Positions 45,520 to 57,416 of a DNA stretch of 62,014 bases are shown piece by piece. The notes under the pieces were generated by a model, which made no database searches, had not been told where the DNA came from, and saw nothing but the letters and a program-made list of their open reading frames with translations. Position 1 is the stretch's first letter. Every line of letters begins with the position of its first letter. The stretch comes from an uncultured Pseudonocardia sp. (lineage in GTDB: Bacteria > Actinomycetota > Actinomycetes > Mycobacteriales > Pseudonocardiaceae), in NCBI GenBank assembly GCA_964247105.1, contig CAXTTN010000003.1, positions 1 through 62,014 on the forward strand, in the 5' to 3' direction. Both the position numbers and the translations under genes were made by a program.

Positions 45520-46764
45520 CTACTTGCTCCCGGGCGTCAGCTTGCCAACTGCCTCAGCCACAGTCGAGGCCGTGATCTGGAACGCCAGACCATAGATGCC
45601 GAGCGCCAGCCACGAGCCCAAGTCGTCGCTGACGTCCACCGCGTCCAGATACTGGGTCTTGAGACCGGACACTGTCACGACCACGACGATCAGTGCTGTC
45701 GACAAGAGCCAGTAGTGCTCCACGAACCACGGCACCGTGCGCAGACGTGACAATTGCTGGGCTTCGGGCCGTCGCCTGATCGAGAGCTGGGCGGCCGCGA
45801 TCTCGGCGGCTTTCGCATCGTGAGGGTCGAGGATCTGCTCCAACTTGTCGAGCCGGGCCGCGGCGTCGGTGACGTCGAAGGTGGCCATGGCGTCGTCGAC
45901 GTCTTCGAGCCCGATCCGCAGTTCCTCCCAGTGGGGCTCGGTCTTCGACAGCGCGGCAAATCGGCGCTGTATGCTGCGTTGCCGGCGCCGGACCGGTATC
46001 AGGGTCGCGATCTGGTCATTGGCCATGCGGACGGCGATACCGAGGACCGATCCCAGTACGAGGAACCAGATGGCCGTGGCGAGCGGGAGGGAATCGCCGC
46101 GATCGCCGAGTACGATACGGACGCCGTGGGGGATGGTGGCGCTGTTCTCCCGGCTGACGTCCAAGTATCCGCAGTACACCCCCGGTGGCACGACCTCCGC
46201 CCCTCGTGGATTCGCTACGAAGGTTATCTTGAGTCCTGTTTGCCCGACGAGCTCGGCGGCCACGGTTACTTGAGCTGCGGGGAACTGTCCAGACGCCGAT
46301 CGCGTCGTACCGGACGAGGGGTTCTTGCCGCCATCGGCGATGCGCTGGCACGTCACGGCGTCGAGATCGCTGACGAACTCGGTCGACCTGATGGCCGGCC
46401 GTCCCGCCGGGACTGGGCCCGCGACTGAGCTCGGGTCGGCGGCCGTCTTATCGGTGCAGTTCTCCGCGACGCCGATGAAGCGACATACCGAGATGACGCT
46501 CGTCCGCGTGAGCGGGGACCGGTCAAGGGCGAACTGAATGTCGGTGGTGTTGTCCAGCGGGACAAGGGGCGGTGTGGGCCGCATCTGTTCGGCGCTCCGG
46601 ACGGTGAAGACGATGAGAGCGGCGAGCACGACCAGCAGGAAGATCGCGCCGAATGGAGGCACCCTGCTCCACGCCCGCTTCGCGGCCGCTCCGACTCTTC
46701 CCATCCGGTCCTCCCTCGATGTTCCAGGCAGTGAGTCGCGCGTAGTGACAAGCCTGTTACTCAT
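45520..46764 (-). CDS. Hypothetical membrane protein
   Basis: N-terminal TM, a Cys-containing extracytoplasmic domain, further TMs and a helical region. Start is 46764 or 46704. Confidence 0.7.
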   Translation of the reverse strand: MSNRLVTTRDSLPGTSREDRMGRVGAAAKRAWSRVPPFGAIFLLVVLAALIVFTVRSAEQMRPTPPLVPLDNTTDIQFALDRSPLTRTSVISVCRFIGVAENCTDKTAADPSSVAGPVPAGRPAIRSTEFVSDLDAVTCQRIADGGKNPSSGTTRSASGQFPAAQVTVAAELVGQTGLKITFVANPRGAEVVPPGVYCGYLDVSRENSATIPHGVRIVLGDRGDSLPLATAIWFLVLGSVLGIAVRMANDQIATLIPVRRRQRSIQRRFAALSKTEPHWEELRIGLEDVDDAMATFDVTDAAARLDKLEQILDPHDAKAAEIAAAQLSIRRRPEAQQLSRLRTVPWFVEHYWLLSTALIVVVVTVSGLKTQYLDAVDVSDDLGSWLALGIYGLAFQITASTVAEAVGKLTPGSK

Positions 46765-49254: not shown

Positions 49255-49538
49255 GTCCGTGGCGGACCCCGCGGCGCTGGCGCGGGTCGGCCACCCTGCC
49301 CAGCACCTCGCGCAGGGTCGGCACCGACCTCACCGGATCGGGTAGGGCTACCGCGCCCAGCTGGTCGACGACAGCGGCGATGGACAAGGATGCAGACGGG
49401 GCACTGCACTCGTTTCAGGGATCGCGCCCGGTGTGAGAACCGCAAGATCACCACAGGTGCGGTGCCCGCACCTCCGACCTCAACCCGCGTGTCGCCGCAG
49501 CTCAGCGCCAACTCCCTGCGACTTTGCCGACCCCCCGG
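49255..49538 (-). mobile_element. ISAs1-family left end and transposase N-terminal fragment
   Basis: LREVLGRVADPRQRRGVRH; terminal-IR-like GGGGTCGGCAAAGTC near 49520-49536. Confidence 0.65.
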
Positions 49539-49789: not shown

Positions 49790-50536
49790 ATGAATGATGT
49801 GCTACGGTGGCCCCACTCAATGCTGAACAACTCGAACCGGGAATGCCGGTGTACGGAGCGTGGATGCGTTCGAGGAACACGCGGCGAGCGCGATCGACAC
49901 GAGCGAGGTCGGCGACCGTGTCGCCCTGCACCGGACACGTTCCGACAACGTGACGTTCCTGAGCGCGGATCGCTGGGGCCTCCTCCTGGCCGAGATCTTC
50001 GACTGCGCGCTGATCGGCGAGGGGATTCTCCCGTCCCTGAGGCGCGCTCGCAATTCGCTCCTGACCGACGTGTACGAGTCCATTCCCAGGCCGCGGCGCT
50101 CTTCGGAGCGCTGGTGGTGGCCCCGGAGATCCGGGCCCTGAACGAGGTGTCGGACGCGTACGGGGTCGACGTGTCACGGCCGAACCGGCTGCAGACGAGG
50201 GGCCACTTCCCGGTACGGCTCACCACGTGGTCGCACCGGGTGGTCGGGGAGGAACGGTCGTTGTTCCCTTGTGACCTGCGTGAGGAGTCGACCCACGACG
50301 ACGGGTGGGACGTCGAGTTCCACCCCGCCGAGGCGGCAACCGCGGACGGTATCGTCGCGCGGCCCTCCCTCGACCTCGGCGGTGGCGGGGAGATCGGCAC
50401 CCATCACCCCGAGGCGTCGCACTGGATTCAGACGTTCATCCCGTTCCGCGAGCCGGTGCAGGTCGATGCCGCCCGGCCGCTGATCGTGCGACTCGCCATC
50501 ACCGACGACGTCGCCCTCACGGCGAGCCTCAGCTGA
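49790..50536 (+). pseudogene. PRMT-like arginine N-methyltransferase (SznE-like), frameshifted and deleted
   Basis: RWPHSMLN..NR, LLAEIFDCALIGEG (double-E loop) and SHWIQ (THW loop) lie in different frames. SAM motif I is absent. Confidence 0.75.
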
Positions 50537-50567
50537 ACGGAGTGACCTGATAGACGCCGACGACGCC

Positions 50568-51235
50568 ATGCTGCAGTACGCCCAACGGCCATTGTTCCGA
50601 TGATGGAGAACGTGCTGGGTGTGTACGGGCCGGTGCAATCCGAGTGGTTCACGATACTGATCGACGAGTACGGTTACGGTGTGCACGACCAGAAGCACTC
50701 GACGCTTTACACGTTGCGGAGCGTCGGCCTGAACACCGAGCCGCACCATTACTGGGAGTACTGCCGAGCGTCCGCTCTGGCCGCCAACAACTACTTCCAC
50801 CACCTCGGTTCCGAGCGCCGCTTCTTTTTCCACCACGTCGGCGCCCTGATCCACAGCGAGGCCGGGCCGGTGGACTTCTGCCGGCGCGCGGTGTCGGTAC
50901 CCGCGGACGTCTTCGACGGCGAGTGCGACGACGGCTACAGGACGATCATGAGCAACTTCGACGTCCAGTTCCCGGCCCAGATCGAGTGGACGGACGGGAA
51001 GGAGGCGATGTCGAAGCTCCACTGCCACTGCCACAACCAGGACGAACTGTGCCACATCGTCGCCGGTCAGATGGACTTCTTCTCCAGCCCCGATTCGCAC
51101 GTGATCCTGAACCCCGGTGACGGTGCGCGATCGCGCCGCTCGCCCTTCGTCTTCGTCCGGGTGGGCGACCGGTTGACGCTCGCCGACCCGGCGATCGAGA
51201 ACTCCTATCGCCTGCCGACCCTGAAGTGGGAGTAA
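50568..51235 (+). pseudogene. sznF: SznF-like HO-like diiron oxidase/cupin, internally deleted
   Basis: MMENVLGVYGPVQSEWF.ILIDEYGYGVHDQKHSTL, NNYFH.LG, VDFCRR, HCH..DELCHIV.G match SznF as recalled. Several blocks are missing. Confidence 0.8.
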
Positions 51236-51239
51236 CCGC

Positions 51240-52517
51240 GTGGATCACAAGACGCAGCCAACGGCCGAGCGCGACGACGAGCCCGCCGCCGGCAGGGACT
51301 TCGGGCTGCTCTGGACCGGGCAGTCGGTCAGCCTGCTGGGCGATCAGGTCATGGTGGTGGCGCTGCCGCTCGCGGCGGTGACCGTGCTGGGCACCTCCGT
51401 CGCGGAGGCCGCGCTGCTGCCGTTCGCGTTCAAGCTGCCTTTCCTCGTCCTGGGTCTCCCGGTGGGGGCGTTCCTGGATCGCGTCCGCAGGCGCCCGGTG
51501 CTGATCGCCAGCGAGATCGCGCAGCTGGTCTGCTTCGTGCTCATCGGCGCGCTCGCGATCGGTGGACTCCTGCCGTTCTGGCTGCTCATGGTTCTCATGG
51601 CGGTGAGCGGCGTGGCAACCGTCTTCTTCCAGGTCGCCTACATGTCCTACCTGCCGTCGCTGGTCCCGCCAGGGGGGATGCTGCACCGGGCCAACGCGCG
51701 GCTGCAGCTCTCGGAGTCGGTGTCGCGTTCGCTGGGGCCGGCGCTGGCCGGTCCGGTCATCGCGATCGCGGGGCCCGTGGGGGCCGCGTTCGCCAACGCG
51801 GGCACGTTCCTCGTCTCCGTCGGGGCGCTCGCCGGGATCCGGCACCGCGAGCCGAAGCCGGAGCCGGCCCAGCGGTCGAAGGGCTGGCTCGTGCGCGAGA
51901 TCAAGGAGGGCCTCGCCTTCGTCGTGCGGCACCCGGTACTCGAGCCGATCCTGCTGTGTGGCGCCGTCTACGTGCTGTTCCAGGGCATCGTGATCACGAT
52001 CATCGTCCTGTACTGCCTGGAGGTGCTGCACCTCGGATCGGTCGCCATCGGCCTCGTCGTCGGCGCGGCCGCCCTGGGCTACCCGATCGGCAACCTCGTC
52101 TGCACGCGCATCGCGGCCCGGATCGGGACGCTGCGCACAGTGGTCCTGGGGGCGACGACCTCGGTGGTCGGCTTCGCGATCATGCCGCTGGCCGGCAGCG
52201 CCGGATGGGTGGTCGGCCTGGTCGCGGGCAGCATCGTGCACGGCATCGGCGAGGGACTGTTCGGTCCCACCTGGACCACGCTCCGCCAGAGCGTCACACC
52301 GCCCGCCCTGCTGGGCCGGGTCAACTCCGTCGAGCGGTTCGTGCTGTGGGGAGCGGTACCGCTCTCCAGCCTGCTGGCCGCCGCACTGATCGCACTGGTG
52401 GGCCTCCCCGCGACCCTGTGGATCGGGGCCCTGGGCACGGCCGCGTGCCTCCCGCCGCTGTTGCGGCGAGGCGTCCTCCAAGGATTGCGCACCCCCGAAA
52501 CATCGTCGAAGGGATGA
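51240..52517 (+). CDS. MFS transporter (macrolide-efflux/DHA3-like)
   Basis: FGLLWTGQSVSLLGDQ, DRVRRR, LLGRVNS; about 12 TMs. Confidence 0.92.
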   Translation: MDHKTQPTAERDDEPAAGRDFGLLWTGQSVSLLGDQVMVVALPLAAVTVLGTSVAEAALLPFAFKLPFLVLGLPVGAFLDRVRRRPVLIASEIAQLVCFVLIGALAIGGLLPFWLLMVLMAVSGVATVFFQVAYMSYLPSLVPPGGMLHRANARLQLSESVSRSLGPALAGPVIAIAGPVGAAFANAGTFLVSVGALAGIRHREPKPEPAQRSKGWLVREIKEGLAFVVRHPVLEPILLCGAVYVLFQGIVITIIVLYCLEVLHLGSVAIGLVVGAAALGYPIGNLVCTRIAARIGTLRTVVLGATTSVVGFAIMPLAGSAGWVVGLVAGSIVHGIGEGLFGPTWTTLRQSVTPPALLGRVNSVERFVLWGAVPLSSLLAAALIALVGLPATLWIGALGTAACLPPLLRRGVLQGLRTPETSSKG

Positions 52518-53446
52518 TCCGCATGAAGCTCGCACCCGGAACCGACGAGTTCCTCGCCAGGTACCACGCGGCCATGCCGCAGGACTTCTTCGCACAGAGC
52601 GTCGCCGAGCAACGCCGGCTGTACCTCTCGCTGTCGGAGGTGTTCCCCTACCCCGTCCCGTCCGGTGTCACCGTCGCCGACCACGAGATCGCCGGCTCCG
52701 GCGGGACTCTCGCCTTCCGCTCCTACCGGCCCGCGCGGCGTGCCGGTGAGGGCACGATCGTCTACTTCCACGGTGGGGGCTTCGTCCTCGGCTCCGTCGA
52801 GAGCCACAACACGCTGGCCGCGGAGCTGGCGGCCGCCACTGGGCTGCTCACGATCTCGGTGGATTTCCCGCTCGCCCCCGAGCACCCGTTCCCCGAGATT
52901 CCCGAGGCCTGTTACGAGGTGCTGTGCGCCCTGGCGGACGGGCCGTTCGCCGGCGAGGCGGACACCGCGGCACCGGTGCTGTGCGGGGACAGCTCGGGGG
53001 CCAACCTCGCGGTGGCGCTGTCCATGATGTGCCGCGACCGCGGCGGCCCCCGGCCGCGCGGCCAGGGGCTCATCGGCCCGGTGCTCGACTTCGCGCGCTG
53101 GTTCGAGCCCAACCCGGCGGAGCCGTTCGGGGGCGAGATGCTGCACTACACCCGCGCCTACTGCCCGCGGCGCGAGCTGGCCGATCACCGCTACGCCTCG
53201 CCACTGGTCTCCGGGACGTTCGAGGACCTTCCCCCGGCGTACATCATGTCCACCGAGTACGACGACCTGCGCGACGACGCCGTCCGCTACGCCCGGCATC
53301 TCGAGGAGCAGGGCACACCGGTTCGGCTCGTCGTGGAACCCGGGCTGGTGCACGCCCCCGTTCGGGGGCGGTCGCTGATCCCCCAGGTCGCGGACGCCTG
53401 GAAGCGGTTCTGCTCCGCGGTGGGCGGGCTTGCGGAGGCTGCGTGA
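52514..53446 (+). CDS. Alpha/beta hydrolase (HSL family esterase)
   Basis: HGGG, GDSSG, D.LRDD, GLVH. ATG 52514 (ATGA overlap) or 52523. Confidence 0.92.
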   Translation: MIRMKLAPGTDEFLARYHAAMPQDFFAQSVAEQRRLYLSLSEVFPYPVPSGVTVADHEIAGSGGTLAFRSYRPARRAGEGTIVYFHGGGFVLGSVESHNTLAAELAAATGLLTISVDFPLAPEHPFPEIPEACYEVLCALADGPFAGEADTAAPVLCGDSSGANLAVALSMMCRDRGGPRPRGQGLIGPVLDFARWFEPNPAEPFGGEMLHYTRAYCPRRELADHRYASPLVSGTFEDLPPAYIMSTEYDDLRDDAVRYARHLEEQGTPVRLVVEPGLVHAPVRGRSLIPQVADAWKRFCSAVGGLAEAA

Positions 53447-53523
53447 CGTGCCGCCGCGTGATCCGCGGCCGGCGGCCGTCGGCGTGGACCCCTCGTGTTC
53501 GGGCCTGTCGTCCGTGTCGGCCG

Positions 53524-55499: not shown

Positions 55500-55573
55500 G
55501 GGCCGCCGAGCCGAACGACCGTGGCAGGTACTTTCGTCGAGCGCGCCAACGCGGGCGGTGGTGAACTCGGGAC

Positions 55574-57416
55574 TCAGCCCTCGTCGACGACGACGCCGTA
55601 GCGGACGGCGAGTTCGGCGAGGCCGTCGTCGTAGCCCTGCCCGATGGTGCGCAGTCGCCAGGAGCCGTCGCGGCGGTAGATCTCCGCGAGCAGCAGGGTG
55701 CGCTCGGTGGTGGCGGCGTCGAGGGTGGCGGTGGCGGCGGTGACGAGGTCGCCATCGACAGCGAGGGTGACGGCGCCCAGGCCGCCGAACGTCGCCTCGC
55801 CGGCGAGCGCAGCCGCGACGACGATCTTGGTGTGCTGCTCCTCGAGCAGGGACAGGTCGATGCGGATGCTCTGCTCGCTGTCGCCGTCCAGTGACAGTGC
55901 TACGGCGCCGTGCTCGCTGACGGGGGCGTTGTAGAAGACGAAGTCCTCGTCGGCGACCACGCGCTCGTTCGCGTCGACGAGGAACGCGACGACGTCGACC
56001 TCGGTCCCGTCGGCGAGAGCGTCGGCGCGCCACGCGGCATTGACCGTCCATGCGCCGGCCTCGGGCAGGTCGATGACCTCGCCGCGGACCATGACCGGCA
56101 CCCCGGGCCCGGTGTTGTCGCTGCGGTGGCGCCCGACGTACTTCGCGAGTTCGGTGTCGGTGACCACCGCGAGGGCGGTCTCCGTCGCGGGGGCGGGCAG
56201 CGCGATCCCGAGGGCCACGGAACCGGTGTGCACCGGCAGGCCCGTCTCGCGGATGCGATCGAGCCGCCGGTCGGACTCGCCGCCCGCCATCAGCACCACG
56301 TCGGTCACGGCGGCGGTGAAGTTGACCGCGCCGTTCCCGCCCTGCGCGGCGATCTCTGCGCGTACGTCGGCTGCCTGTTCGTGGGTGCCCCCGATGATGA
56401 GTACGCGACGACCGTGCAGCGGACCACGTCGGGATGTCGTGATCCGCGGGCGAGGCGTGGTCGGTCGCCTGCTCGCGCTGCTCACCGGCTCGCCTGGCCC
56501 GGACATCGGCGAGCAGGCGCCGCAGTGTGGTCTCGTCGATGACCGGGATGCCCTCGGCGCGGGCCCGCTCGGCCTTGCGGGTACGGTACTGCGCGTTGTT
56601 GGTGACGAGTGCGCTGGTCAGGCTGCTCACCGAGCGGCTGACATCGAGCCCGGCCGCGACGAGTTGCTCGACGAGCTGCTCACGCGGCACGCTCACCGCC
56701 CCGGTGACCGCGAGGCGCATCCCCTGCACGAGCGGACCGCCGGGGTGGAGCCGGCCGGGGTTGCGCCACGGGCTCCGCGGCGTGGTCGGTCGTGTGGGGC
56801 CGCCGCTGGTCTCGCCCTTGCCGTCACAGCCGACGAGGGGGAGTGGCAGGTCCAACCGGGCAGCGAGCAACAGGCTGTGGGTGAGGATGCGAGCCAGTAC
56901 CTCGACGTCGTCGAGTGCGTCATGTGCGTGCTTCTGAGGTACTCCCCAGTACCCGGCGAGGGTGCCCAGCTTGTGGTCGGGCACCGCCAGCCCGAGCCGG
57001 CGGCTCAGCGCGAGCGTGCACAGCCGCTGCTCGACGGGCAGCTTCCGCCCGGTCCGCTCGACTTCCGCCGCGAGGAACCGGTGGTCGAACGCCGCGTTGT
57101 GGGCAACGAGGATTCGCCCCTCCAGCATCTCGAGCAGCTCGGGTGCGACCTGCTCGAAACTCGGCGCTCCCGCCAGCCGCTCGCGGGTCAGGCCGTGGAC
57201 ATGCACCGGTCCCGGATCCACACCGGCATCGACGAGCGTATGGAACCGACGCTCAGGACGCCCTGCGGCATCCAGGGCCAGCGCGGCCACGCTCAGCACG
57301 CGTCCCGTGTCGGGCTGGAAGCCGGAGGTCTCGACGTCGACGACCGCCCAGGAGTGGTCCAGTTCGAGCACCGGCTCGATGGGCGCGGTCGGCACGGCGG
57401 CACCTCGCTGTTGCAT
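55574..57416 (-). pseudogene. DEDDh exonuclease-BRCT-BRCT-TerD fusion with one frameshift near 56498-56501
   Basis: DVETSG, HNAAFD, HDALDD and a BRCT lie in one frame. A second BRCT and TerD (DFVFYN, EIYRR..WR) lie in another. Confidence 0.8.

What the first reader, a model, noticed from the sequence alone, without database searches (positions are those of the whole stretch)
49790..53446. Relic of an SznE/SznF-type N-nitroso biosynthetic cluster with a different gene context
Seen: a broken PRMT-like methyltransferase directly followed by a broken protein with HO-like diiron motifs (DEYGYGVHDQKH, SE) and a cupin motif (HCH..DELCHIV), an unrelated 36-aa tail, then intact coupled MFS and HSL-family hydrolase genes. 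Known: in streptozotocin biosynthesis SznE methylates L-arginine and SznF converts the product to an N-nitrosourea. Relative to SznF as I recall it, the N-terminal domain, the EHxHIDxHH helix and the last cupin His are deleted, so this copy should be inactive. Inference: it is the footprint of an N-nitroso pathway with an MFS/esterase context, and intact versions in related strains may make an undescribed DNA-alkylating or NO-releasing metabolite.
Basis: partly seen in the sequence, partly recalled or inferred. Interest (0 to 1): 0.85.

Follow-up and report, generated by a model that had tools for sequence, protein, structure and literature searches.

The report
Decayed streptozotocin-type gene cluster remnant
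This is a mostly ordinary find: the deletion-riddled remains of a streptozotocin-type gene cluster in which only the transporter and hydrolase genes stayed intact, likely because they still serve an intact sister cluster elsewhere in the same genome.

Summary
The relic is real; the 'different gene context' is not. Window 49790-51235 holds remnants of sznE, sznF and the Rieske gene that follows sznF. About 1.1 kb is missing in eight deletions relative to the closest intact locus, and five of SznF's ten iron ligands are gone. The 'unrelated' 36-aa tail is the C-terminal third of that Rieske gene. A likely ATP-grasp stub follows the hydrolase. The order E-F-Rieske-MFS-hydrolase-ATP-grasp is the order of the cluster whose SznF is identical to crystallised SznF, less one ATP-grasp gene. 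The hydrolase is 50% identical to the one there, and 38 of 66 full-length sznF loci carry an MFS plus this hydrolase. The MFS is of another subfamily, and the relic SznF belongs to an uncharacterised subclade. MFS and hydrolase look conserved (2% versus 15% of invariant residues changed). The genome has a second, intact szn-type cluster on contig C1, with genes resembling aminohydroxybenzoate synthesis; it is a better discovery target than the relic. Side leads: the same MFS-hydrolase pair stands alone in other sznEF-bearing genomes, and the relic keeps almost unbroken open frames up to the MFS (simulated chance 1-26%). The deletions could not be checked in reads.

The parts
49257..49535 (-). 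5' stub of a transposase gene (ISAs1-like by a recalled motif), directly upstream of the relic; context only
   Evidence: 77.5% over 285 nt to a broken transposase-like frame on G000:C46; the same stretch hits many genus genomes; no Pfam hit for the stub
49790..50536 (+). sznE-like arginine methyltransferase pseudogene. Deletions of about 98 nt (SAM-binding motif), 18 nt and 1 nt; the -98 and -1 changes compensate, so a 248-codon frame stays open
   Evidence: profile hits to E 6.5e-19
50568..50603 (+). Stub of the sznF 5' end (11 codons from this ATG); its stop overlaps the ATG at 50600
   Evidence: sequence directly; aligns to the start of intact sznF
50597..51125 (+). sznF remnant (part of the diiron domain and part of the cupin). 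Deletions of about 481, 6, 126, 81 and 293 nt. Keeps E215, H225, E281, H407, H409; lacks E189, H311, D315, H318, H448 and Y459 (SznF numbering)
   Evidence: ligand list from PMC11705231 and bioRxiv 2020.07.29.227702
51126..51235 (+). C-terminal third of the small Rieske-type gene that follows sznF, fused in its own frame to the sznF remnant
   Evidence: 58% over 33 aa to L087 and L088; Rieske Pfam on the intact gene
51240..52517 (+). Intact MFS transporter in the slot of the szn-cluster MFS, but of a different MFS subfamily
   Evidence: Pfam MFS_1 1e-41; homologs at 45% or more together with the hydrolase in 21 of 112 sznF loci; not alignable to the L067 MFS
52514..53446 (+). Intact HSL-family alpha/beta hydrolase, homolog of the hydrolase in the streptozotocin-type cluster (SznJ by position, inferred)
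   Evidence: 50% to the L067 hydrolase; HGGG and GDSSG motifs present; 2 of about 112 invariant residues changed
53466..53504 (+). Likely N-terminal stub of the ATP-grasp gene that follows the hydrolase in intact clusters
   Evidence: top of 123,946 six-frame positions for a 13-aa profile, 9th of 123,916 for an 18-aa profile; 37-nt offset from the hydrolase stop is the commonest offset in intact loci, 14 of 56; not found by the full-length HMM

Best explanation
This is a pseudogenised streptozotocin (szn)-type cluster whose biosynthetic genes (sznE, sznF, Rieske gene, likely an ATP-grasp gene) are broken, so it is predicted to make nothing, while its MFS transporter and hydrolase are intact and likely retained as an export or self-protection module for the intact szn-type cluster on contig C1. 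Shown: homology, deletions relative to the closest intact locus, loss of half the iron ligands, canonical gene order, and an intact second cluster that is not the parent of the relic. From established SznE/SznF chemistry: the ancestor would have methylated L-arginine, N-hydroxylated it twice and rearranged it to an N-methyl-N-nitrosourea. Inferred: ATP-grasp enzymes and the hydrolase would have handed that group to an acceptor, and the MFS would have exported the product. Also inferred: redundancy with C1 relaxed selection on the synthetic genes, and the two surviving genes are still expressed from the old operon start. My odds: pseudogene of the known layout 0.92; MFS-hydrolase kept by selection 0.75; kept specifically to serve the C1 pathway about 0.45.
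For: SznF is the only PDB match. Eight deletions, about 1,104 nt, against L087. The relic changes about 12 of 83 clade-invariant residues (15%) versus 0-7% in 13 intact members; the hydrolase changes about 2 of 112 (2%) versus 0-6% in 13 relatives. The relic has a 0.65 end branch against a median of 0.17 in a quick tree. Short contigs of a near relative in run X1 show 5 non-synonymous of 6 listed differences in the sznE piece but 3 of 12 in MFS and hydrolase (Fisher p 0.043). At 4 of those 5 sites X1 has the residue of intact L087, and it carries extra letters at the 18-nt deletion. Canonical order in L067. MFS plus hydrolase in 38 of 66 full-length loci. C1 SznF keeps all ten ligands, is 52% identical to the relic and falls outside its clade. 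All 7 of 400 family genomes with this hydrolase at E<=1e-75 also hold sznF; sznF background was 6 of 400 in an order-wide draw.
Against: No raw reads for this genome, so the deletions are unverified. The assembly is 84% complete in 464 contigs, and a nearby gene carries a 1-nt insertion relative to two relatives. No intact locus combining the relic's SznF clade with this MFS-hydrolase pair was found: L087 and L088 have a different MFS upstream of sznE and no hydrolase of this family within the contig. No expression data. C1 has its own MFS and hydrolase, so the window pair could be dispensable. The in-trans argument rests on 2 independently drawn genomes (G564, G735); L045 and L112 were found through sznF. 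X1 contigs are short, at depth 2-4.
Confidence: 0.75

Rival explanations
1. Neutral lag: the whole island is decaying, and the MFS and hydrolase have simply not been hit yet.
For: GC3 of the broken pieces is still 0.85-0.94, so decay is recent. No expression data. C1 has its own MFS and hydrolase.
Against: Eight deletions in 1.45 kb and a truncated ATP-grasp gene on the far side, against none of consequence in the 2.2 kb between them. Invariant-residue loss is 15% versus 2%. X1 differences in the pair are mostly synonymous.
Confidence: 0.13
2. One reading: footprint of a distinct N-nitroso pathway defined by an MFS/esterase context without ATP-grasp enzymes.
For: The MFS subfamily differs from the streptozotocin-type one. 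The SznF subclade is distinct and uncharacterised. No ATP-grasp trace lies between the Rieske tail and the MFS, and the MFS start follows the tail stop by 4 nt.
Against: MFS and hydrolase occupy these slots in the authentic layout. A likely ATP-grasp stub follows the hydrolase. The closest intact loci have an ATP-grasp gene after the Rieske gene.
Confidence: 0.06
3. The breaks are assembly errors in an intact cluster.
For: Fragmented assembly; no confirming reads; a related strain in X1 lacks at least the 18-nt deletion; another frameshift lies nearby.
Against: The breaks are eight separate deletions of 1-481 nt with no long repeat in the region. Point changes at invariant residues are raised as well. 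The window has no N.
Confidence: 0.03
4. The open 211-codon frame (50600-51235) is a new, functional minimal protein.
For: All four junctions inside it keep the frame, and it still scores above the PF14518 cut-off.
Against: It lacks three ligands of the diiron helix, E189, H448 and Y459; alanine substitution of any of the six listed diiron-domain ligands abolishes SznF activity (PMC11705231). It shows excess change at invariant sites. No other protein with this architecture was seen, although the 'near' and 'shorter' length classes were not searched with it.
Confidence: 0.03

Closest known systems
Streptozotocin (szn/stz) biosynthetic gene cluster, represented here by L067 (Streptomyces sp. 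NPDC038707), whose SznF is identical to PDB 6m9r
   Same: sznE-sznF-Rieske order, then MFS, HSL hydrolase (50% identity) and ATP-grasp.
   Different: E, F, Rieske and the last ATP-grasp are broken. The first ATP-grasp, LysE, sigma factor and DNA-repair genes are absent at this locus. The MFS is of another subfamily, and SznF is of a separate subclade.
Uncharacterised SznF subclade (P0001-P0015, P0176, P0177; includes proteins named from Kineosporia sp. J2-2, Mycolicibacterium doricum, Janibacter sp. G368, Luteipulveratus halotolerans), loci L087 and L088
   Same: Closest intact SznE, SznF and Rieske: 57-71% identity over the columns the relic keeps.
   Different: L087 is intact and has the order MFS-E-F-Rieske-ATP-grasp with AGT, oxygenase and sigma genes upstream. 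Its MFS is only 37% identical, and no hydrolase of this family is in the contig. Gene context of the other members was not seen.
szn-type clusters with the window's MFS subfamily (L033, L046, L050, L065, L077, L094-L096, L113-L115)
   Same: MFS (50-63%) directly followed by the hydrolase (50-56%) and an ATP-grasp gene, downstream of E-F-Rieske.
   Different: Intact; they add a second alpha/beta hydrolase; their SznF belongs to other clades.
ChmM and GrbD (SznF homologs with a degenerate diiron domain, chalkophomycin and gramibactin)
   Same: SznF homologs lacking diiron ligands (PMC11177257).
   Different: Per that paper the ChmM group keeps all three cupin histidines and sits with NRPS/PKS genes and a heme N-oxygenase. 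The relic has lost H448 and whole helices, and no such partner was seen among the neighbouring genes I annotated.

Membership tests
SznF family (descent) | Sequence homology to the SznF diiron and cupin domains | tested here: met
   E 1.4e-48 to PDB SznF; nested in a SznF subclade, SH-aLRT 96
Functional SznF N-nitrosourea synthase | Seven diiron ligands E189, E215, H225, E281, H311, D315, H318 | tested here: not met
   3 of 7 remain
Functional SznF N-nitrosourea synthase | Three cupin histidines H407, H409, H448, plus Y459 | tested here: not met
   H448 and Y459 are deleted
Functional SznF N-nitrosourea synthase | N-terminal dimerisation domain | tested here: not met
   481-nt deletion
Functional SznE arginine methyltransferase | Intact SAM-binding motif and PRMT-like C-terminal domain in one frame | tested here: not met
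   Motif region deleted and middle segment out of frame; no Pfam hit
szn-type cluster (layout) | sznE-sznF-Rieske followed by MFS and HSL hydrolase | tested here: met
szn-type cluster (layout) | ATP-grasp ligases | tested here: inconclusive
   Only a 13-codon motif stub after the hydrolase; none between Rieske and MFS
szn-type cluster (layout) | Adjacent DNA-alkylation repair genes (AGT, Ada, AlkB-like) | tested here: not met
   No hit on contig C3; an Ada/AGT gene is on C1
szn-type cluster (function) | Production of an N-nitroso metabolite | not testable with these tools
   Needs culture and LC-MS; predicted absent for this locus
HSL-family serine hydrolase | HGGG oxyanion motif, GDSxG serine, conserved Asp and His, full length | tested here: met
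   the motif names are recalled
ChmM/GrbD-type cupin-only N-nitrosating enzymes | All three cupin histidines kept, NRPS/PKS context | tested here: not met

The most novel reading that the evidence does not exclude
The MFS-hydrolase pair is a portable nitrosourea export or detoxification cassette that outlives its biosynthetic genes and works in trans. It stands alone, away from sznEF, in G564 and G735 and about 3 kb from it in G535, and each of these genomes holds an intact sznEF cluster. In this genome the operon head was eroded only in ways that keep ribosomes moving to the MFS: two frameshifts compensate, four junctions are in frame, and one out-of-frame deletion ends in an ATGA overlap. 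The locus would then be a natural record of non-polar operon decay and would point to an unrecognised self-protection role for SznJ-like hydrolases.
Probability: 0.3. Interest if true: 0.6.

Novelty: new member of a known kind. Interest (0 to 1): 0.27.

Why it matters
The relic opens no new chemistry: it is a dead copy of a cluster type with hundreds of known cryptic members. Its value is indirect. First, it is a natural deletion experiment suggesting that the MFS and the SznJ-position hydrolase are useful without the local nitrosourea synthase; the one review passage I found assigns SznJ only a 'likely' role. Second, it may show selection against polarity during operon decay. Third, it led to an intact szn-type cluster on C1 with aldolase, dehydroquinate-synthase-II-like, N-acetyltransferase, P450 and amidase genes, a better candidate for an undescribed N-nitroso metabolite.

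Tried and rejected
Direct genome-collection scan with the relic ORF: 30 pattern hits, none confirmed. No close ortholog of the relic among 40 relatives, 136 other genus genomes (best other hit 37%), a 400-genome order draw (best 56%), 77 genomes of one other genus or plasmids (4 records, all under 42%). The window hydrolase had no hit at E<=1e-75 in a 400-genome class draw and no window-type hit in 24 genomes of genus g18. A genus-wide DNA search of 45-57.5 kb found flanking genes but no listed match over 49.8-53.4 kb; only 2 candidates per genome were scored, so this is weak. Reads: one run (X1, share 0.11), contigs only, none bridging an sznF junction; I draw no habitat claim from it. Full-length HMMs of ATP-grasp, Rieske and LysE genes found nothing significant in the window, so the generic Rieske HMM missed even the tail. 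No sigma-70-type promoter or intrinsic terminator and no meaningful repeat. Relic as a duplicate of the C1 cluster: rejected (52% identity, different clade). Self-mutagenesis by a methylating product: not supported by the little data; 4 of 6 listed differences from X1 are G in the window against A in X1, the opposite of the G:C-to-A:T pattern I recall for O6-methylguanine. Contig-length matching by eye between the hydrolase and SznF hit lists found no intact ortholog. Ng et al. 2019 is not held and opened an unrelated paper, so the letters I, J and K are assigned by position; that paper's supplements may already tabulate these neighbourhoods. Three look-ups of earlier findings returned nothing. 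No fold or complex prediction was run.
Full report
Observation. The window is contig C3 of G000, a 6.1-Mb assembly in 464 contigs, 84% complete. G000 shares a family with genomes whose loci match named Actinokineospora and Solihabitans records, so it is likely Pseudonocardiaceae (inference). Frame 50555-51232 matches only SznF in the PDB (3 sequences, E 1.4e-48) and Pfam PF14518. The upstream region matches SznE-type methyltransferases in pieces. The MFS and HSL-family hydrolase are full length and overlap by ATGA at 52514-52517.

Anatomy of the damage. The closest intact locus retrieved is L087. A DNA alignment to it shows deletions of about 98 nt (the aligner splits it into 70+28; it removes the SAM-binding motif), 18 nt (49879/80), 1 nt (50086/7), 481 nt (50596/7), 6 nt, 126 nt (50928/9), 81 nt (24+57) and 293 nt (51125/6), about 1,104 nt in all. 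I left out a further length difference at the end of sznE because it may be natural. Lengths are relative to a homolog 62-83% identical in the main aligned blocks, so they are approximate. In SznF numbering the relic keeps E215, H225, E281, H407 and H409 and lacks E189, H311, D315, H318, H448 and Y459. The ligand list comes from passages of PMC11705231 and bioRxiv 10.1101/2020.07.29.227702. The first says alanine substitution of any of six diiron ligands abolishes activity. The 293-nt deletion joins sznF to the last third of the next gene, a small Rieske-type protein (58% over 33 aa; Pfam).

Pseudogene, not a variant enzyme. Over the 176 columns the relic keeps, it changes about 12 of 83 residues invariant in its clade (15%); 13 intact members, each left out in turn, change 0-7%. 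The same test on the hydrolase gives 2% against 0-6%. In a quick tree of 30 rows the relic has a 0.65 end branch (median 0.17) inside a 17-row subclade with SH-aLRT 96. One public run, X1, holds short low-depth contigs of a near relative. In the sznE piece 5 of 6 listed differences are non-synonymous, against 3 of 12 in MFS and hydrolase (Fisher p 0.043). At 4 of the 5 sites X1 has the residue of intact L087, and its contig runs on into letters that fit the 18-nt gap. X1 does not span any sznF junction, so the deletions are not verified in reads.

The context is the usual one. I fetched 112 sznF loci (80 of 101 from genomes; 32 from metagenomes). Among the 66 with at least 21 kb, all 66 have sznE and the Rieske gene, 41 have a hydrolase at least 40% identical to the window's, and 38 have both an MFS and that hydrolase. 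Across all 112, 21 have the window's MFS subfamily plus the hydrolase. Locus L067 has an SznF 471/471 identical to PDB 6m9r and reads sigma factor, Ada, AGT, alkylation-repair oxygenase, E, F, Rieske, ATP-grasp, MFS, HSL hydrolase, ATP-grasp, LysE. Counting letters puts E and F in fifth and sixth place and makes H an ATP-grasp, I the MFS, J the hydrolase and K an ATP-grasp. This fits the review statement that SznH, SznJ and SznK likely finish streptozotocin. The lettering is my inference, because Ng et al. 2019 is not held. The window hydrolase is 50% identical to the L067 one; the MFS is not alignable to the L067 MFS. Just after the hydrolase stop lies a decayed match to the N-terminal motif of the K-type ATP-grasp. 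It ranks first of 123,946 positions with a 13-aa profile and ninth with an 18-aa profile, at the commonest offset seen in intact loci. I saw the site before choosing the profile length, and a full-length HMM misses it, so I call it likely. The window therefore reads E', F', Rieske', MFS, hydrolase, K'. No trace of the H-type ATP-grasp or of repair genes remains; a transposase stub lies upstream.

A second, intact cluster. G000 contig C1 (about 23.9-41.5 kb) carries ATP-grasp, MFS, sigma factor, Ada/AGT, sznE, sznF with all ten ligands, Rieske, hydrolase, ATP-grasp, LysE, a dehydroquinate-synthase-II-like gene, a third ATP-grasp, a DhnA-type aldolase, an N-acetyltransferase, a P450 and an amidase. 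Its SznF is 52% identical to the relic and lies in another clade, so the two clusters were likely acquired separately. The synthase-like gene hits the BagC/FevH 3,4-AHBA synthase model, and the L045 aldolase (65% identical to C1's) hits BagB/FevI, both below their cut-offs. An aminohydroxybenzoate branch is thus a lead, not a result. Twelve of the 66 full loci have the dehydroquinate-synthase-like gene. One literature search for SznF with 3-amino-4-hydroxybenzoic listed no title describing such a cluster (25 of 39 listings seen).

Why MFS and hydrolase survive (inferred). Both nest among szn-linked homologs, nearest L112 and L045 (the hydrolase tree was the quick version). The same pair, 63-69% identical, stands as a two-gene module away from sznEF in G564 and G735 and about 3 kb from it in G535, and each genome has an intact sznEF cluster. 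In a 400-genome family draw all 7 genomes with this hydrolase family also hold sznF, against 6 of 400 in an order draw. Only two of these are independent observations of the window-type pair, and C1 has its own MFS and hydrolase, so action in trans is plausible but unproven. Separately, the relic leaves only 35 untranslated bases between 49790 and the MFS start. The -98 and -1 changes compensate, a short frame ends in an ATGA overlap at 50600, and four later junctions are in frame. In simulations on L087 this happened in 0.7-1.4% of runs if only ATG restarts count and 13-26% if GTG and TTG count. The test was devised after seeing the pattern. One paper search on the idea returned no title on it (15 of 19 listings seen).

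Against my reading. No intact locus with both the relic's SznF clade and this MFS-hydrolase pair was found, so the ancestral layout is reconstructed from remnants. There are no expression data. A neighbouring exonuclease-TerD gene has a 1-nt insertion relative to two relatives, so single-base breaks in this assembly may include errors.

Comparison and verdict. By descent and layout it is an szn-type cluster; it fails every test for a functional SznE or SznF. PMC11177257 (passages seen) reports over 400 cryptic clusters with SznF homologs, 136 of them in szn-type clusters. PMC8264950, PMC9570651 and PMC13755311 (passages only) added nothing on genes G-L, and searches for those gene names found only the one review. 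The finding is a new, dead member of a known kind. Interest 0.27, carried mainly by the retained-cassette idea and by the intact C1 cluster outside the window.

Noticed in passing
G000:C1:23945-41470 (L175): Intact szn-type cluster: three ATP-grasps, MFS, sigma, Ada/AGT, sznE, sznF with all ten ligands, Rieske, hydrolase, LysE, plus dehydroquinate-synthase-II-like and aldolase genes (AHBA-synthase-like, below cut-off), N-acetyltransferase, P450 and amidase. L045 and L051 have the same order from sznE onward. Candidate for an undescribed aromatic N-nitroso product.
   Followed up: partly
L167:10934-13247, L168:9876-12052, L174:7186-9369: The window-type MFS-hydrolase pair stands as a two-gene module without adjacent sznEF in three other genomes, all of which hold an intact sznEF cluster.
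   Followed up: partly
window 49790-51240: Despite eight deletions, open frames cover all but 35 nt from the sznE start to the MFS start; simulated chance 0.7-1.4% or 13-26% depending on allowed restart codons.
   Followed up: partly
L169:7332-13549 (G564): Module of ATP-grasp, MFS, hydrolase, ATP-grasp and second hydrolase with no sznE or sznF in the 20 kb fetched; the genome's sznEF lies on another contig.
   Followed up: no
L017, L024, L026-L028, L030, L032, L039, L044, L084: sznEF clusters in Streptomyces and a Frankiaceae MAG with adjacent amidase, dehydroquinate-synthase-II-like and aldolase genes: a second recurring layout with possible aromatic chemistry.
   Followed up: no
window 49257-49535: 5' stub of a transposase gene (ISAs1-like by a recalled motif), 77.5% identical to a broken copy on C46, directly upstream of the relic.
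   Followed up: partly
window 55552-57395, around 56500: Exonuclease-BRCT-TerD gene split by a 1-nt insertion relative to G122 and G019 (86% identical); real frameshift or assembly error.
   Followed up: partly
L088:5508-6869: The sznF of this metagenome contig is frameshifted, although the locus looks nearly identical to intact L087.
   Followed up: no
L173 (G113:C199): A divergent SznF homolog (34-37%) in the same genus with the order F, Rieske, E instead of E, F, Rieske.
   Followed up: no
window 45523-46764 (minus strand): 414-aa ORF with a probable N-terminal membrane anchor and no Pfam or NCBIfam hit.
   Followed up: no
L052 (CAVPCF010000199.1): An actinobacterial-type szn cluster in a MAG labelled Candidatus Melainabacteria. 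A contig of the same length (77,415) belongs to G735, which the tool places in the window's family, so the label is doubtful.
   Followed up: no
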